Assembly (NCBI GenBank): GCA_035389045.1
Contig: DAOORA010000010.1
Coordinates: 62,001-93,076 of the forward strand
Length of the DNA: 31,076 nucleotides
Source: Bacteroidales bacterium
GTDB taxonomy: Bacteria > Bacteroidota > Bacteroidia > Bacteroidales > CAIWKO01
Reading direction: 5' to 3'
This document shows, piece by piece, positions 21,001-30,000 of the stretch. The position numbers were made by a program. Position 1 is the first letter of the stretch, and each line of letters opens with the position of its first letter.

Positions 21001-24000
21001 CTTAAAAATAATTTATTTAAGTAATTATTTAATAACGTGAAGCACAATGTTATCCTGTTTTTTGTTTTTATCAGTTTAACGGGTACTATTTTAAATGCCC
21101 GGTTGCTGGAAGCTTATGTGATCTCTTCCGGAGGTTACTATACTTCGGCTGCCGGTTCTTTTTGTGTTACGCTGGCCGAAACGACCATGGTGCAGACCTT
21201 GTCATCCATGGGTAATTTTCTGACACAGGGATTTCAACAACCCGACGAATGGTATTCATCCATCCAGGAGGAGCCTGTACAGGGAAACTTTGTTGTTTAT
21301 CCCGATCCTAACTATGGTAATATTATTGTAACTGTGCAATCCAAAGAAAATGGCGAGGCACAACTAAGTATTTATGATGTGCTGGGGCAAAAGGAATTTT
21401 CCATACAAAAGACCATTGTCACCGCAGCTAACCTTGAATATATAGATATTCGTGGTTATTCCATGGGTATTTATTTTCTCTTGTGCTAATAGGTTGATGA
21501 AAACGGCAAAATGAATTTAAAGTCCTGAAAATCAACACAACTAATTAAATAAAAAAGCAAACTATGAGAACAACAATTGCCAAAATCATTTTTTCAGTAT
21601 CTTTTTTATTGATTACGGGCTTTTCATTGGCTCAGGTGCCGCATGCATTTAATTATCAGGCTGTTGCCCGCGATGTGTCTGGAAATGTGCTGCCTGACAA
21701 GATACTGGGCATCAGGGTTTCACTGCACCTGGGAACAGCGATGGGAGCCGTAGTTTATTCGGAAACATTTACTGCGATCACTAATGCCTATGGCCTGTTT
21801 ACCTTGGATATAGGGCTTGGAACCACAATTTCTGGGCAATTTGATACGATAGCCTGGGGTAAAAATCACTATTACATGCAGGTGGAAATGGATCCTACAG
21901 GCGGTGCAACATACATTGATATGGGAACCAGCCAGTTGCTGAGTGTTCCCTATGCCATGTATGCTGAAAACTCCGCATGGAAAAGAAATGGGTCAAATAT
22001 CTTTTATGATGCTGGAAATGTTGGGGTTGGATTAGCTGACCCCAGCCAAAAGCTGCATATAAAAGGAACTTTCAGGGTTGATGATCCAAATCCAATGATC
22101 CAATTAATAGACACTACTGCTTTTAAGGGTTATGTTCAGTCCTATCATAACGATATGATTTTTGCCAATGCCAATGATACCGGCAGTATTGAATTTTGGA
22201 CCAACTATGCTGAAAAAATGAAAATTAAAGCCAATGGTAACGTGGGCATAGGAACCACCAACCCTGCCAATAAATTTGAAGTTATCAATTCGGAAAGCGC
22301 TAAATTCAGGGTGGGAACAATTACTTCGCTCGGAAAAGGCTTTGGCCAGGAATATGACTCAATCACTCCAGGTTATTTTATTGCACATGGAGGCGAATAC
22401 TGGCATTTTTGTTATGCGGACACTCCCGATTCTGCCTATACAAGAAAAGTGACCCTTGACGGCAGGGGCAATATGTTCCGTCCATCCATCAATAATGTTA
22501 TCAGTCTTGGAAATCTTTCATATAAATGGGCTGCTGTTTATGCCGTAAACGGAACTATTCAAACTTCAGATTTACGATATAAGGACAATATATCTGATAT
22601 TCAGTACGGGCTTGATGAAGTGTTGAAACTTCGCCCGGTTTCCTACAGGTGGAAAGACGATAACCTTAACATTGGAACCGGAAAAAATCTCGGTTTTATC
22701 GCCCAGGAACTGGAAACCATTGTTCCTGAGGTAGTTGTACATAAGCAGACAGAAATTGATAATGAAACCAACCATCCTGCCGGCGAATACCCTGACACTT
22801 ATGGCGTGAAATACAGTGAACTTATTCCGGTGCTGGTAAAAGCCATACAGGAGCAACAAACCCAGTTTGTAAAAGCCATACAGGAACAGCAAACCCAGAT
22901 AGAACAATTAAAACAGGAAATAAAAATATTGAAAGGGCAATGACAATGCCCGTAAGCCTTGCAATTTTCAATAATATAACCCGTTGATGATGACTGTCCG
23001 GCAAAGGGTTGTCTTATTAATAATACCCTGGAATTCACTCCTGGTTTTTTTAATGAAATTTTAATAATAAAATATTTTTTTATTTATTTAATCACTGTTG
23101 TCCGGTAAAAATATTTTAAATATGCTGAATAGCTTTATTTTCAGAACATTTACAACATATCGCCACCTACGGGGCTTTATTTTTCATTGTAATGTTTTTT
23201 CTACCAATATGCCGCCTCTAACGAGGCTAAAAAAGTTCCAAAGGTCTATAATATTATCATAATGAATAATTTGCCAACTTATAAAAGCGCCGTAGGTTCG
23301 AAATATTACATAGTTAATAAATTAACCGGACAATAATGTTATTTAACAAATTTATTGTTTTTATAAACATAAATGATTAAATTTGCTTTATTAATCGTAC
23401 AATTTTTAAATTAATCAAACCTTATGAAACGAAAATTTATGCTACTGTTCATTTCCGGAGTTATGATAGTGTTTCTTTCTCATGCACAGTCGCTGACACC
23501 TTTTGTGATCTCTTCATCCGGTGGTTATTATTCTTCGGCTGCCGGTTCTCTATCGGCTACAGTGGCCGAAATGACCATGGTGCAGACTTTATCTTCCATG
23601 GGTAATTTTCTGACACAGGGATTTCAGCAACCCGGCGAATGGTATGTATCCATCCCGGAGGAGCCGGTGCAGGGCAACCTGTCCGTTTATCCCAATCCCA
23701 GTTATGGTAAATTCAATGTAACGGTGCAATCCAAAGAAAAAGGGGAGGCAGAGCTCAGCATTTATGATGTACTGGGGCAAAAAACCTGTTCCAGCCGTAT
23801 GCACATTGTACCCGGCGCTAACACTGAGTATGTGGATATCCGTGGTTATTCCATGGGCATATATTTACTCGAATATCTTTACACCGGAGAAAACGGTAAA
23901 AAGGAATCTAAAGTTCTGAAAATCAATGTAATCAATTAATCATATAAATAAAATGCCATGAAAACAACCGTTACCAAAATCATTTGTTCATTGATCTTTT

Positions 24001-27000: not shown

Positions 27001-30000
27001 TTCAATTTATAACATATAAACCATAAAATTTTTTAAACCATGAAATCACCATTTATAAAGATCATCTTTTCATTAACCTTTTTATTGATCACGTGCTATA
27101 CTTTCGCCCAGGCGCCGCAGGCATTTAATTACCAGGCTGTTGCCCGCGATGTCTCGGGAAACGTGCTGCCTGACCAGATACTGGGGATTAAGGTTTCACT
27201 GCACATGGGAACAGCAACAGGTGCGGTAGTTTATTCGGAAACTTTTACACCGACGTCAAATTCCTTTGGACTGTTTACCATAGGCATAGGTCTTGGAACT
27301 GCTATTTCCGGGCAGTTTGATACGATTTCCTGGGGCAAAAATCACTATTATATGCAGGTGGAAATGGATCCTGCGGGCGGCGCGACCTATGTTGATATGG
27401 GAACCAGTCAGTTATTGAGTGTGCCTTATGCAATGTATGCAGCTCATACAGAGGGAATTGGTTTTTCCGCATATAGGAGTGCAACGACTCAATTAATTGC
27501 TGCAGGTTCATACACCGAAATTGTTTTTAATTCAGAGAATTATGATGATGGTAATGGCTATAACCCAACTAATGGTTATTATACCGCACCTTCAGCCGGA
27601 GTGTATCATTTTGATGCATCTGCCCGGCTAACCGGAACGGCAACGGAAGGGCAGACAACTGTTATTGTTCTTGTTGTCAATGGAAATCAAAAAAGGATGA
27701 AAAGGATGTTATCCGAAACAGATGCTTTTAGTATAGATGTTTCTGCTGATCTTAAGTTAAATGCCGGAGACATAGTGAATGTTGAAATATATAGCCAAAC
27801 AGAAACGTCTGCTATGTATATCAATAATATTTGTACATTTTTCTCAGGGCATAAGGTTTATTGATGTTGAGGAAAAATATCTTTTCTTTTTCAGGTATGC
27901 GTATTATAGCAGAAAGCACAGCGGCGAAAACGGAAAATAGGAATCTAAAGTGTTGAAAATTAATGGAATAATTAATCATAAAAAAATATAACATGAAAAC
28001 AACGGTTACCAAAATCATTTTCTCATTGATCTTTTTAGTTGTCATGGGCTATTCTTTTGCCCAGGCGCCCCAGGCATTCAATTACCAGGCCGTTGCCCGC
28101 GATATTTCGGGAAATGTATTGCCCAACCAGCTTTTGGGTATCAGGGTTTCACTGCATATGGGAACAGCCACGGGAACCGTAGTTTATTCGGAAACCTTTA
28201 CTCCGACCACTAATCCCTATGGTTTATTTACCCTAAGCATAGGTATAGGAACCTCTGTCTCCGGGCAATTTGATACGATTGCATGGGGTAAGAATCAATA
28301 TTACATGCAGGTGGAAATGGATCCTGCGGGCGGAGTGACGTATACTGATATGGGTACCAGTCAGTTGCTTTCTGTTCCTTATGCTATGTATGCTGAGAGA
28401 ACCAAAGCATTGCCTCCGGGTACTTCTGGACAAACTCTCGCTCATGATGCCTCAGGATGGGTAGCCAGTGATTTTCTTGTTAATACCGGAGTCCGCATAG
28501 GTATTGGAACCACCACACCGGGATTCTTATGTGAGATGAAATCCTCTCAGTCCTATTTACATATTAACTCCACAGGAACTTTCGGAGGTATTTTACTGAA
28601 CAGGCCTGATACGAATTCATATATGAGACTGATGTATCGCACTGATGATAGTAATAAATGGTATGTAGGCCTGCTGGGGGCCAAAGATGGTTATTCTGTT
28701 TCGAGAGCAAACAGCGATGATGGTACATTTCATATAAATCATAATAATGGTTATGTAGGAATCGGAACAATTGCGCCAACCAATATCTTTGAAGTAGTAA
28801 CCGGAACTTCAGGAAGCAAATTCCGTGTAGGCTCAGTCACATATGGCTCTGGTTTTGGCCAGGATTTTAACAGCAGTAATGCCTCATATTTTCTGGCTAA
28901 TGGCGGCTCTTACTGGCATTTTTGCTATGCGGCAACTCCTGCAGATGCATATACAAGAATAGTGTCCATTGATGGCGGAGGAAATGTTTTCCGTCCTTCT
29001 GCAAACAATACAGTAAGCTTAGGAAACTCAGGTTATAAATGGACCGCTGTATGGGCAGTGAACGGAACCATACAGACTTCTGACCTGCGTTATAAAACCG
29101 ATATCGCTGACATACCTTACGGGCTTAAAGAAGTTTTGAAACTTCGCCCTGTTTCTTATAGCTGGAAAAATGAAAAGCTGAATACCGGTACAGGCAAAAA
29201 TCTTGGCTTTATTGCCCAGGAAATGGAAACATTGGTGCCTGATGTTGTGGTTCATACTCAGATAGAAATTGACAAAGAAACCGATCAGCCCGGAAGTGAG
29301 TATCCGGATGCCTACGGCGTGAAATACAGCGAGCTTATTCCTGTGCTGGTAAAAGCTATTCAGGAGCAACAAGCTCAGATTGAACTGCTGAAGCAGGAAA
29401 TTAAAACCCTGAAAGAAAAATAGTTTTATACTGACGTGATGAGCATTATGGAATGATGCTCACCGGCATAATGGTTATATAACAGAATACGGCGGATATT
29501 GCGGGGGGCGTTTCCACGGTAAAGTGCTACCGGAGGGATGTGCTGCTGTTTTAATATAGTGGAAGCCAGCCAGAGCCCGAAAGCAGAAGCTGTATAATAC
29601 TCTCCGCAAAAATGCTTGAAAGCGGCAACAGCTTGTTTATCAAATATCTCGTTAATTACTGAATGATACCACTTGTCAGTTGCATCGTCGCCGTTAAGTC
29701 CTGCAACAAAAAGGTCTATATCGGTGGCTGATAAATTATTATCTTTCAGTATGTTATTGATTGTATCATGGATGCAGGTAATTGATTTGGGTTTGTATAA
29801 TGTCTTTAAACAATCCAGGCGGGCATAGGAATTGGGACGTATGTCTTTTGTCAGCGTAAAATAAACAGAACCCTCACCTGGAATGGTGCCCTTTCCGGGA
29901 TTTTTCAGCATGTCAAGATGGTTTTCAGCTTGTTGCCGCCACAAACCCAACAGGCCGGAAATATTATAATGATTTTCAGAGATTTCGTCTATTCCGCCCA

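What a model noticed while it worked through the whole genome (the two positions that open the first line are those of the whole stretch)
21037..29423. Surface fibre loci: T9SS-tailed adaptor gene followed by fibre genes that share an N-terminal domain but carry swapped h [...]
Nineteen secreted proteins (241-1279 aa) share a 135-residue N-terminal domain (38-80% identity) and then diverge completely: YadA-head repeats, phage-type S74 intramolecular-chaperone ends, a C1q/TNF-like head, Lcl_C ends or unknown parts; none has the T9SS C-terminal sorting domain, but at 6 places a gene for a protein with its own conserved 50-residue N-terminal motif (..ISxGG..GSxSxTxGE..LTQGFQQ), mostly with a T9SS tail, lies directly upstream on the same strand. 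I read this as a two-part surface fibre system in which a T9SS-exported adaptor anchors trimeric, tail-fibre-like adhesins through their common N-terminal domain, with head swapping as the source of binding diversity. New would [...]
Evidence so far: blastp of residues 1-140 of g00844 against the proteome: 19 hits, E 1e-28 to 1e-97, all at residues 1-144 of the hit; Pfam rows: Peptidase_S74 in g00837, 839, 844, 728, 2636, 2637, 2640; YadA_head in 7; C1q in g00843; Lcl_C in g00112, g01017; none in g00295, 297, 842, 1458, 1461, 2250; no Por_Secre_tail or CHU_C in any. Adaptors with the shared motif: g00836, 838, 841 (150-171 aa, Por_Secre_tail), g00398 (Por_Secre_tail), g00293, g00732 (518-519 aa, Dockerin_1), g01459 (Por_Secre_tail at E 3e-8, call 63); sequences in call 143. 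Adaptor directly upstream of fibre genes at C3 (g00293), C9 (g00732), C10 (three times), C20 (g01459); at C13 a 167-aa Por_Secre_tail gene without the motif precedes [...]
(Added by a program. Inside this text positions count along the whole contig: contig position 62,001 is position 1 of the stretch shown here. "Call 12" and the like, gene names such as g00115 and contig names such as C1 are that model's own, and its searches are not shown. The text may have been shortened before it was handed on; [...] marks where a part breaks off. The agent that wrote the report below was given it as the finding of a first reader that could run no searches.)

Follow-up and report, generated by a model that had tools for sequence, protein, structure and literature searches.

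The report
Surface fibres paired with secretion adaptors
A wastewater Bacteroidota bacterium encodes 19 phage-tail-fibre-like surface proteins with one shared base and interchangeable tips, and next to them small proteins carrying the export tag the fibres lack, which may be the unknown part that brings such fibres to the cell surface and holds them there.

Summary
The genome has 19 secreted proteins (241-1279 aa) with one shared ~113-aa N-terminal beta-sandwich and unrelated C-terminal parts. None has a T9SS sorting domain. Five lie in this window, with two intact adaptor genes, one decayed adaptor gene and one adaptor remnant.

The fibres are not a new kind. Their N-domain is homologous over its full length to the N-domain of Bdellovibrio MAT (mosaic adhesive trimer) fibres (hhalign 98.5%, E 2e-15). 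The 2024 MAT paper already lists Bacteroidota members in a supplementary table.

The adaptor appears to be unreported. It is a small protein made of a signal peptide, a highly conserved ~50-aa motif (disordered when modelled alone) and a T9SS type-A tail. Across Bacteroidota, 69 of 86 adaptor genes are followed directly by a fibre gene. Of 10 fibre loci that I picked from other lineages, 9 have a small T9SS-tailed gene directly upstream. Adaptors were found only in fibre-bearing genomes (18 of 18).

Best reading (about 0.55): the adaptor binds the fibre base and supplies T9SS export and/or surface anchoring. Binding was not shown, because the one complex prediction returned no verdict. Bdellovibrio fibres work without T9SS or adaptor, so the adaptor is not universal.

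The parts
20954..21035 (+). Upstream region of A1 with a TAnnTTTG box at 20981-20988, 56 nt before the start codon. It is repeated at 83% identity before A3 (25685-25766).
   Evidence: The reading as a Bacteroidetes -7 promoter box is recalled knowledge, and the motif is common in the window (35 found, 31 expected).
21037..21489 (+). A1: decayed adaptor gene (150 aa, GTG start). Motif at about 21118-21288. The T9SS tail is cut short by stop codons TAA TAG.
   Evidence: (Por_Secre_tail 34.5 bits, profile positions 1-60 of 75)
21490..21557 (+). Out-of-frame remnant of the last part of A1's T9SS tail.
   Evidence: (repeat D4, 63% to the A3 3' end)
21564..22943 (+). F1: MAT-like fibre (459 aa). 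N-domain 21636-21974. S74 chaperone-protease from 22566, with SDLRYK at residue 335.
23424..23939 (+). A2: intact short adaptor (171 aa) with signal peptide, motif 23487-23678 and T9SS type-A tail 23685-23921. A TAnnTTTG box lies at 23378.
23958..25184 (+). F2: MAT-like fibre (408 aa), starting 18 nt after A2. N-domain 24030-24368. S74 from 24846 (SDGRLK at residue 297).
25535..25766 (+). Duplicated upstream block: a copy (79-83% identity) of 20800-21035, including a remnant of the 3' end of the S9 peptidase gene. A TAnnTTTG box lies at 25712.
25767..26282 (+). A3: intact short adaptor (171 aa). Motif 25830-26021. T9SS type-A tail 26028-26264.
26301..27026 (+). F3: shortest fibre (241 aa), starting 18 nt after A3. 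N-domain 26373-26711. The C-terminal ~100 aa match no family.
27040..27864 (+). F4: fibre (274 aa), starting 13 nt after F3. N-domain 27112-27450. C1q/TNF-like head 27463-27852.
27918..27985 (+). Remnant of an adaptor gene's 3' end (76% to the A3 3' end), with no adaptor ORF.
   Evidence: repeat D4
27993..29423 (+). F5: fibre (476 aa). N-domain 28065-28403. S74 from 29079 (SDLRYK at residue 363). Its C-terminal part is 71-74% identical at DNA level to that of F1.

Best explanation
The five fibre genes are Bacteroidota members of the MAT (mosaic adhesive trimer) family. Each has a Sec signal peptide, a conserved Ig-like N-terminal base domain, a variable stalk and an exchangeable tip. The tips here are an S74 self-cleaving chaperone end, a C1q/TNF-like head, or an unknown domain.

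The fibres carry no signal for crossing the outer membrane. The gene directly upstream encodes a small adaptor. Its conserved ~50-residue N-terminal motif is unstructured on its own. I infer that it folds onto the fibre's N-domain. The adaptor's type-A C-terminal domain then takes the complex through the type IX secretion system, or takes the adaptor alone, which then docks the fibre. After the sortase PorU removes the tail, the adaptor stays on the cell surface and holds the fibre base inward and the tip outward.

Long adaptors carry the same motif on a ~350-residue stalk. Cassettes of adaptor plus fibre duplicate and recombine, which produces a repertoire of binding tips: 19 fibres in four N-domain clades, with three adaptor types.

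Shown here: family membership, domain layout, conserved gene pairing, presence of T9SS.

Inferred: binding between adaptor and fibre, the export route, anchoring, trimer state, adhesive function.
For: (1) Homology to MAT. NF053851 (Bdello_MAT_N) is the only NCBIfam hit of all 19 N-domains with the signal peptide removed. My profile of 70 Bacteroidota N-domains hits 15 of 17 B. bacteriovorus MAT N-domains. hhalign gives 98.5%, E 2.2e-15, over 110 of 113 columns.

(2) The tips match those reported for MATs (S74 with SDxxxK, TNF-like, lectin-like) (paper passages).

(3) 0 of 19 fibres has a T9SS tail. The genome has SprA (2707 bits), two PorU, PorV and GldM, all over their cutoffs.

(4) Adaptor family. 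338 clusters at E<=1e-3, and 119 of the 120 listed carry PF18962. The motif is nearly invariant while the rest varies.

(5) Gene pairing. In 77 loci picked by the adaptor alone, 69 of 86 adaptor motifs are followed on the same strand by a fibre N-domain. Two more are cut by contig ends, and two more are tandem adaptors ahead of a fibre. In 10 loci that I picked from the fibre matches of other families (for nine of them the genome scan with the adaptor profile had found no adaptor), 9 have a 157-202-aa ORF directly upstream. All 9 carry Por_Secre_tail.

(6) In a sample of 301 genomes of the phylum, the adaptor motif was found in 18, all among the 80 that have the N-domain.

(7) AF2 models the adaptor tail as folded (pLDDT 76-92), but the conserved motif scores 32-40. 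The N-domain is a confident sandwich (pLDDT 91).

(8) Residues 72-517 of the long adaptor are 58% identical to the stalk plus tail of a T9SS phosphoesterase in this window. The motif therefore sits where a passenger domain sits.

(9) In this genome each adaptor type lies beside one N-domain clade, in 7 of 7 adjacent pairs.

(10) The intergenic gaps are 18, 18 and 13 nt for A2-F2, A3-F3 and F3-F4.
Against: - Binding rests on gene order only. No fusion of adaptor motif and N-domain was found among 150 representatives or 77 loci.
- 12 of the 19 fibres here are not directly preceded by an adaptor. Seven of these (C1, C43, the 675-aa gene on C20, and four on C60) have none in their array at all.
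- 62 of 80 fibre-bearing genomes gave no hit to the adaptor profile. The 9 loci I then inspected suggest divergence of the motif rather than absence.
- One five-fibre array (L103) has no adaptor.
- B. bacteriovorus has 17 MAT genes, but no SprA match and no adaptor motif. The N-domain family therefore reaches the surface there by another route.
- One representative carries six tandem N-domains, which fits a generic Ig-like spacer as well as a docking domain.
- I found no precedent for cargo without a tail riding through the T9SS.
Confidence: 0.55

Rival explanations
1. Dock only. The adaptor is exported alone by the T9SS and serves as a surface dock or stalk. The fibre crosses the outer membrane by a T9SS-independent route that the MAT family also uses in Bdellovibrio, and is then captured.
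For: Bdellovibrio has 17 MAT genes but no SprA match and no adaptor motif, so another route exists for this family. Orphan adaptors without a neighbouring fibre exist (13 of 86). Long adaptors look like display stalks.
Against: No candidate for such a route lies in the loci. The tight, promoter-proximal pairing with 18-nt gaps fits joint handling better.
Confidence: 0.2
2. Linked in function but not by base binding. The small T9SS protein is a co-expressed accessory, for example a folding or trimerisation helper, a mask of the tip, or a separate surface peptide. It does not bind the N-domain.
For: The pairing is conserved, but no contact has been shown. The fibres with S74 already carry their own chaperone.
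Against: The adaptor stays conserved while the tips change completely. Its partner should therefore be the constant part, the N-domain. Adaptor types track N-domain clades.
Confidence: 0.12
3. The N-domain is only a generic Ig-like spacer at the base of many unrelated secreted proteins. The adjacency reflects cassettes moving together, without functional dependence.
For: The fold is a common beta-sandwich with no close relative (best Z 7.0, TMq 0.51-0.57). There are weak Big_1 hits in 22 of 99 representatives, and six tandem copies in one protein. A MITE-like repeat and duplications show that the locus is plastic.
Against: In all 150 best-scoring of the 26,362 representatives, the only ones listed, the best-scoring stretch begins within about 60 residues of the N-terminus, right after the signal peptide. 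The pairing persists across distant lineages where the adaptor motif has diverged beyond profile detection. Co-mobility alone would not maintain that.
Confidence: 0.08

Closest known systems
MAT (mosaic adhesive trimer) fibres of Bdellovibrio bacteriovorus (Caulton et al. 2024, PMC10769870; NCBIfam NF053851)
   Same: A signal peptide is followed at once by a conserved beta-rich N-domain, homologous over its full length. Many paralogues have exchanged tips, including S74 with SDxxxK, TNF-like and lectin-like heads (paper passages). The paper's Table S3 lists FCB-group members.
   Different: Scores are below the curated cutoff of the Bdellovibrio subfamily model (20-40 bits against 60). The Bdellovibrio domain has an insert of roughly 20-30 residues with two conserved Cys. 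The fibres here are shorter (241-1279 aa). A T9SS-tailed adaptor gene lies upstream, which Bdellovibrio lacks. The paper states that the surface partner of the N-domain is unknown.
T9SS type-A cargo anchored after tail removal by PorU (as described for Porphyromonas gingivalis; abstract of PMC9143113 seen in the listing)
   Same: The adaptors have a signal peptide and a C-terminal Por_Secre_tail/TIGR04183 domain over the cutoffs. The genome has SprA, PorU, PorV and GldM.
   Different: After tail removal, the short adaptor's passenger would be only about 65 residues and is predicted unstructured. Its proposed role is to carry or hold a second, tail-less protein, which I did not find described.
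Phage tail fibres and tailspikes with an S74 intramolecular chaperone, attached to the virion through an N-terminal domain and adaptor proteins (recalled knowledge)
   Same: Peptidase_S74 with an intact SDxxxK motif in F1, F2 and F5. Constant base and variable tip. An adaptor encoded beside the fibre.
   Different: The locus lies among housekeeping genes (recA, peroxiredoxin, glycogen enzymes), with no phage genes nearby. The base is anchored to a cell, not a virion. The N-domain has no convincing phage structural match.
Trimeric autotransporter adhesins (YadA, Ata, EmaA)
   Same: YadA_head repeats, and partial matches to the Ata, EmaA and YadA models, occur in the stalks of 6 paralogues.
   Different: No membrane-anchor family was among the Pfam hits of any fibre. 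The conserved end is N-terminal, not C-terminal.
Hitchhiker (piggyback) export of signal-less partners, known for Tat and peroxisomes (passages of PMC9251779)
   Same: The proposed logic is the same: one subunit carries the targeting signal for a folded complex.
   Different: That review gives no such case for T9SS, and none came up in my searches. It is untested here.

Membership tests
MAT family (mosaic adhesive trimer fibres) | Conserved ~130-aa beta-rich domain directly after the signal peptide, homologous to that of Bdellovibrio MATs | tested here: met
   hhalign of A4 against 17 B. bacteriovorus N-domains gives 98.5%, E 2.2e-15, over 110 of 113 columns. 15 of 17 were hit by my profile. 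19 of 19 N-domains hit NF053851 as their only NCBIfam family.
MAT family (mosaic adhesive trimer fibres) | Score over the curated cutoff of NCBIfam NF053851 (a Bdellovibrio subfamily-domain model, 60 bits) | tested here: not met
   0 of 18 genome matches is over the cutoff. The best is 32 bits in the genome scan and 40 bits on proteins. 17 of 17 in B. bacteriovorus are over it.
MAT family (mosaic adhesive trimer fibres) | Exchangeable C-terminal tips, with or without S74 | tested here: met
   S74 in 7 fibres, C1q in 1, Lcl_C in 4, none in 4, and YadA_head stalks in 6. Across 99 representatives: S74 11, Fib_succ_major 9, Collagen 9, Lcl_C 8, YadA_head 7, C1q 4.
MAT family (mosaic adhesive trimer fibres) | Trimeric fibre exposed on the cell surface | not testable with these tools
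   Inferred only from families that form trimers (S74, C1q, collagen, YadA head).
Peptidase S74 intramolecular chaperone | Pfam PF13884 over its cutoff and a catalytic SDxxxK motif | tested here: met
   F1 59.3, F2 57.2 and F5 56.2 bits against a cutoff of 22. SDLRYK at residue 335, SDGRLK at 297 and SDLRYK at 363. Self-cleavage was not testable.
T9SS type-A cargo (the adaptors) | C-terminal sorting domain (PF18962 / TIGR04183) over its cutoff | tested here: met
   A2 scores 43.6 and 39.4 bits, A3 45.9 and 43.2 bits. A1 scores 34.5 bits but is truncated. The four long adaptors score 31-35 bits against 27. The C13 adaptor scores 35 bits.
T9SS type-A cargo (the adaptors) | T9SS machinery present in the same genome | tested here: met
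   SprA 2707 bits, PorU 1341 and 1148 bits, PorV 496 bits, GldM 359 bits, all over their cutoffs.
T9SS type-A cargo (the fibres) | C-terminal sorting domain | tested here: not met
   0 of 19 fibres hit Por_Secre_tail, CHU_C or an NCBIfam T9SS sorting model at the thresholds used.
Trimeric autotransporter adhesins | C-terminal membrane-anchor beta-barrel | tested here: not met
   Only head repeats matched. No anchor family was among the Pfam hits at E<=0.01. The NCBIfam matches to Ata, EmaA and YadA are partial and far below their cutoffs.

The most novel reading that the evidence does not exclude
MAT-type fibres are two-part machines throughout their range. A small, membrane-tethered partner encoded just upstream grips the conserved N-domain. 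In Bacteroidota this partner is a ~50-residue docking peptide on a T9SS type-A tail, and tail-less, folded trimeric fibres ride through the T9SS on it. That would be the first hitchhiker export by this system. In Bdellovibrio the equivalent partner may be the small lipoproteins that directly precede 4 of 17 MAT genes.
Probability: 0.3. Interest if true: 0.85.

Novelty: new variant of a known kind. Interest (0 to 1): 0.7.

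Why it matters
The 2024 MAT paper left one question open: what on the cell surface holds the conserved N-domain (passage). The 2026 review passages I saw still describe the fibres only in Bdellovibrio.

This locus offers a concrete, testable candidate. It is a partner gene that is conserved next to MAT genes across a whole phylum, and it carries the export and anchoring signal that the fibres lack.

If the adaptor escorts the fibre, it would also show that the T9SS can export proteins without a C-terminal domain as part of a complex. That would change how T9SS secretomes are predicted from sequence.

The family is very large. There are 26,362 clusters at 50% identity, and it occurs in 80 of 301 sampled genomes of the phylum. 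It has no Pfam model of its own. A rule for how these fibres are mounted would therefore annotate many genes, and would give a natural scaffold for surface display with exchangeable tips.

Tried and rejected
- Complex prediction of the fibre N-domain (alignment A4) with the adaptor N-region (A3) at 1:1 gave no answer (score 0.01 against a mark of 0.32, and no controls were run). It counts neither for nor against binding.
- Fold searches with the N-domain model found only generic beta-sandwiches. Foldseek against PDB gave no match at E<=1e-3, best TMq 0.51. BFVD gave one match at 9e-4, TMq up to 0.57. VIA-align wide gave a best Z of 7.0, which is within background.
- A search for a natural fusion of adaptor motif and N-domain found none among 150 representatives or in the ORFs of 77 loci.
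- I tried to test whether fibres occur only in T9SS-bearing genomes using the GldM model. The model rang in all 75 sampled genomes of the same class and in 1 of 225 outside it, so it does not reach the other classes. The test says nothing.
- A scan with a Balneolaceae-type adaptor to find named cultured hosts was dominated by the generic T9SS tail and gave no useful list.
- The protein atlas look-up of the adaptor motif returned only unnamed Bacteroidota clusters at scores of 0.84-0.90.
- RNA evidence is weak. Contigs from two metatranscriptome libraries match parts of A3, F2, F3, F4 and F5 at 99% identity or more, at depth 2-6. Contigs cannot show transcription, strand or operon structure, and DNA can be present in such libraries. 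Parts without cover mean nothing.
- The sigma-70 promoter and terminator scan gave no more sites than shuffled sequence.
- Literature searches for a T9SS adaptor, piggyback or hitchhiker export, or S74 fibres with T9SS found nothing relevant. One supplementary file of the MAT paper is a scanned PDF that could not be read.

Full report
**What is in the window.**
Between a prolyl-oligopeptidase gene (18852-20882) and a ketoacyl-synthase-like gene (29426-30493, minus strand) lie eight plus-strand ORFs. In order they are A1, F1, A2, F2, A3, F3, F4 and F5. The wider neighbourhood is housekeeping (recA, a peroxiredoxin, a fused glycogen synthase/phosphorylase) and holds no phage genes.

F1 to F5 each start with a signal peptide ending in ...FAQ, followed by a 113-residue domain that is 78-83% identical among the five. 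After that they diverge:
- F1, F2 and F5 end in Peptidase_S74 (56-59 bits against a cutoff of 22).
- F4 ends in a C1q domain (41 bits against 23.7).
- F3 matches nothing.

The S74 catalytic motif SDxxxK is intact in all three S74 fibres.

A2 and A3 (171 aa, 85% identical) have a signal peptide, a conserved motif (..VISSSGGYY..GSLSATVAEMTMVQT..NFLTQGFQQP), a short linker and a T9SS type-A tail. A1 is a decayed copy. Its tail ends in TAA TAG, and the remaining tail sequence follows out of frame. A further remnant of an adaptor 3' end sits at 27918-27985, just before F5.

The block upstream of A1 (20800-21128) is repeated before A3 (25535-25858) and includes a piece of the peptidase gene's 3' end. 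The cassettes therefore arose by segmental duplication.

The gaps are 18 nt (A2-F2, A3-F3) and 13 nt (F3-F4). A TAnnTTTG box lies 46-56 nt before each adaptor start and within 120 nt of none of the five fibre starts. The motif is common in the window (35 found, 31 expected), and its reading as a promoter box is recalled knowledge.

**The whole genome.**
The assembly (135 contigs, 96% complete by the tool's figure) holds 19 copies of the N-domain, all at the N-terminus of ORFs of 241-1279 aa. They fall into four clades at about 42-48% identity between clades:
- the five window copies;
- ten copies on C1, C3, C9, C20, C43 and C60;
- three copies on C60;
- one copy on C13.

No fibre has any T9SS sorting domain.

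There are eight adaptor-like genes:
- three short ones in the window;
- four long ones of 518-538 aa on C3, C5, C9 and C20;
- one divergent short one on C13.

All of them carry Por_Secre_tail. Seven lie directly upstream of a fibre gene. The eighth lies 117 nt from a contig end.

Each adaptor type sits beside one N-domain clade, in 7 of 7 adjacent pairs. This fits cognate pairing but equally fits duplication of whole cassettes.

Residues 72-517 of the long adaptor are 58% identical to the C-terminal 445 residues of a T9SS-tailed phosphoesterase in this window (7869-10283). The motif has thus been placed where a passenger domain sits, on a shared stalk-plus-tail module.

The genome encodes SprA, two PorU, PorV and GldM, all over their curated cutoffs.

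**What the fibres are.**
The only NCBIfam hit of all 19 N-domains with the signal peptide removed is NF053851, the N-domain of Bdellovibrio 'mosaic adhesive trimer' fibres. The scores are 20-40 bits, below the 60-bit cutoff.

To test this directly I used a published primer to fetch a B. bacteriovorus record and found 17 MAT N-domains over the cutoff in that genome.
- My own profile of 70 Bacteroidota N-domains hits 15 of the 17.
- A profile-profile comparison gives 98.5% probability, E 2.2e-15, over 110 of 113 columns.
- The start motif (P..L/F-T/N-Y-Q) and the end motif (SVPYA) line up. The Bdellovibrio domain has an insert of roughly 20-30 residues with two conserved cysteines.

The passages of the MAT paper that I read describe 21 paralogues, '~130 aa' conserved beta-rich N-domains after the signal peptide, S74 and non-S74 tips (TNF-like, C-type lectin, new sandwiches) and surface exposure. 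[quoted passage not shown] Its Supplementary Table S3 lists MATs from FCB-group bacteria: a Saprospiraceae bacterium, Salinivirga, Kordia, Patiriisocius and Dokdonia.

The family is very large. 26,362 representatives at 50% identity match at E<=1e-3. In all 150 best-scoring, the only ones listed, the best-scoring stretch of the domain begins within about 60 residues of the N-terminus. Among 99 of those, the tips include S74 (11), Fib_succ_major (9), collagen repeats (9), Lcl_C (8), YadA_head (7), C1q (4) and BppL_N (4).

AF2 models the domain as a confident seven-strand beta-sandwich (pLDDT 91, pTM 0.82). It has no close solved or viral relative, which agrees with the paper's statement.

**What the adaptor is.**
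The short adaptor has 338 homologous clusters at E<=1e-3. Of the 120 listed (116-208 aa), 119 carry PF18962, and where they are named they are called only 'T9SS type A sorting domain-containing protein'.

Across 70 sequences the first ~50 mature residues contain the invariant or nearly invariant positions (G12, S23, T25, E28, L42, T43, Q44, G45, F46, Q47, Q48, P49). The linker varies.

AF2 folds the tail (residues 86-170, pLDDT 76-92) but leaves the conserved motif without structure (residues 22-84, pLDDT 32-40). A strongly conserved segment that does not fold alone is what one expects of a piece that folds on a partner or in an oligomer. That is an inference.

**Is the pairing real?**
I ran two tests that did not use this genome.

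First test. A scan of 185,579 species genomes with the adaptor alignment confirmed 508 stretches, of which the best 80 (77 loci) were kept. In these, 86 adaptor motifs were found.
- 69 are followed on the same strand by a fibre N-domain whose mature part begins 69-208 nt after the adaptor's stop.
- 2 are cut off by a contig end.
- 15 are not followed by a fibre.

Of the 15 exceptions:
- two are adaptors in tandem ahead of a fibre;
- four are orphan adaptors next to the same conserved 676-677-aa gene on the other strand;
- one is followed by transposase-like ORFs (my reading of their first residues; not tested).

The loci come from Bacteroidales, Chitinophagales, Saprospiraceae, Sphingobacteriales, Cyclobacteriaceae and others, by their record titles.

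Second test. In an even sample of 301 genomes of the phylum, the N-domain was found in 80 (49 of 144 genera). The adaptor profile was found in 18, all among the 80. Because 62 fibre-bearing genomes lacked a profile hit, I fetched 10 fibre loci that I picked from the match list. For nine of them the genome scan had found no adaptor. Nine of the ten have a 157-202-aa ORF directly upstream on the same strand. All nine carry Por_Secre_tail at 27.9-52.2 bits, and their N-termini look like diverged versions of the motif. The tenth is a five-fibre array with no such gene.

The gene pair 'small T9SS-tailed protein, then MAT fibre' is thus conserved well beyond the reach of the motif profile.

**How it most likely works.**
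The fibres enter the periplasm by Sec. They have no lipobox, no barrel and no T9SS tail. Their constant part is the N-domain and their variable part is the tip. The adaptor is constant where the fibre is constant, it carries the only outer-membrane export signal in the operon, and after tail removal it would be a ~65-residue peptide of no obvious independent use.

I therefore read the motif as a docking peptide for the N-domain. The adaptor would be either an escort that takes the folded fibre through the T9SS translocon, or a surface dock, or both. Its C-terminus would face the cell and the fibre tip would point outward. Anchoring after PorU cleavage is taken from what is described for type-A cargo in Porphyromonas (abstract in the listing).

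The function of the fibres, adhesion to varied targets, is inferred from the MAT work and from the lectin-like, C1q-like and phage-like tips.

**What speaks against it.**
- Binding is not shown. The single complex prediction gave no verdict.
- No natural fusion was found.
- Twelve of the 19 fibres here are not directly preceded by an adaptor, and seven have none in their array. Adaptors would have to act in trans.
- B. bacteriovorus has MATs but no SprA match and no adaptor motif. The same SprA model scored 2707 bits in the window's genome. The family can therefore reach a cell surface without this partner.
- One representative has six tandem N-domains.

**A lead seen on the way.**
In the B. 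bacteriovorus record, four of the 17 MAT genes are directly preceded by a small ORF with a lipobox (92-188 aa). These are the more divergent four, one of them the gene reached with the bd2740 primer. Three of the small ORFs share a C-terminal motif. The word 'lipoprotein' does not occur in the main text of the MAT paper. If these are anchors, the two phyla would use different tethers for the same base domain. This is untested.

**Habitat and expression.**
Near-identical sequence is held by runs labelled activated sludge, anaerobic digester and wastewater. The best holder may be the source sample. Contigs of two RNA libraries match parts of A3, F2, F3, F4 and F5 at 99% identity or more, at low depth. 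This does not prove transcription.

**Verdict.**
- The fibres are new members of a known family.
- The conserved T9SS-tailed adaptor did not appear in the library I searched. It is a testable candidate for the missing mount of MAT fibres.
- The mechanism remains inferred.

Noticed in passing
window 23074-23344: A ~270-nt element in the F1-A2 spacer has at least 8 other copies on other contigs at 82-96% identity. It also shows about five-fold higher depth in the best DNA run, with a 37-letter insertion variant at 23170. It looks like a small mobile repeat.
   Followed up: partly
L117, L119, L120, L121 (B. bacteriovorus record): Four of 17 MAT genes are directly preceded by a small ORF with a lipobox (92-188 aa). 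Three of these share a C-terminal motif. They may be a lipoprotein counterpart of the Bacteroidota adaptor. The MAT paper's main text does not mention them.
   Followed up: partly
window 7869-10283 and 6472-7728: Two T9SS-tailed calcineurin-like phosphoesterases. The longer one shares its C-terminal 445 residues (58% identity) with the long adaptors. This is a reusable stalk-plus-tail module with weak CarboxypepD_reg, SdrD_B and Dockerin_1 matches.
   Followed up: partly
L004:11473-12603 and L004:9566-11392 (contig C60): A 376-aa ORF (N-domain plus YadA_head) is followed by a 608-aa ORF (YadA_head plus S74) on the same strand. It looks like one fibre gene split in two.
   Followed up: no
protein P0121 (representative): A 916-aa protein with six tandem copies of the fibre N-domain and a C-terminal FlgD_ig-like match, which may be a T9SS tail.
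   Followed up: partly
L036, L041, L048, L078: Orphan adaptor genes with no fibre downstream, each next to the same conserved 676-677-aa gene on the opposite strand, in Chitinophagales/Sphingobacteriales-type MAGs. This may be a stand-alone adaptor locus.
   Followed up: no
window 684-5546 (minus strand): A 1620-aa RHS-repeat protein with DUF6531. Its C-terminal end was not examined.
   Followed up: no
window 11343-15635 (minus strand): A 1430-aa fusion of a glycogen-synthase-like part, DUF3417 and a phosphorylase-like part in one ORF.
   Followed up: no
L006:9274-13659 (contig C3): A 1461-aa protein with an Lcl_C end but no MAT N-domain lies between two fibre genes on the same strand.
   Followed up: no
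G000 contig C13, 24939-33094: Two full-length PorU sortase paralogues in tandem, followed by PorV, about 15 kb upstream of the C13 adaptor-fibre pair.
   Followed up: no
L076:7088-9844: Downstream of an adaptor and a 153-aa ORF lies a 918-aa protein without the N-domain. Its start carries a stalk-like NVGIGT..P..KLHV motif similar to one found in the fibres.
   Followed up: no
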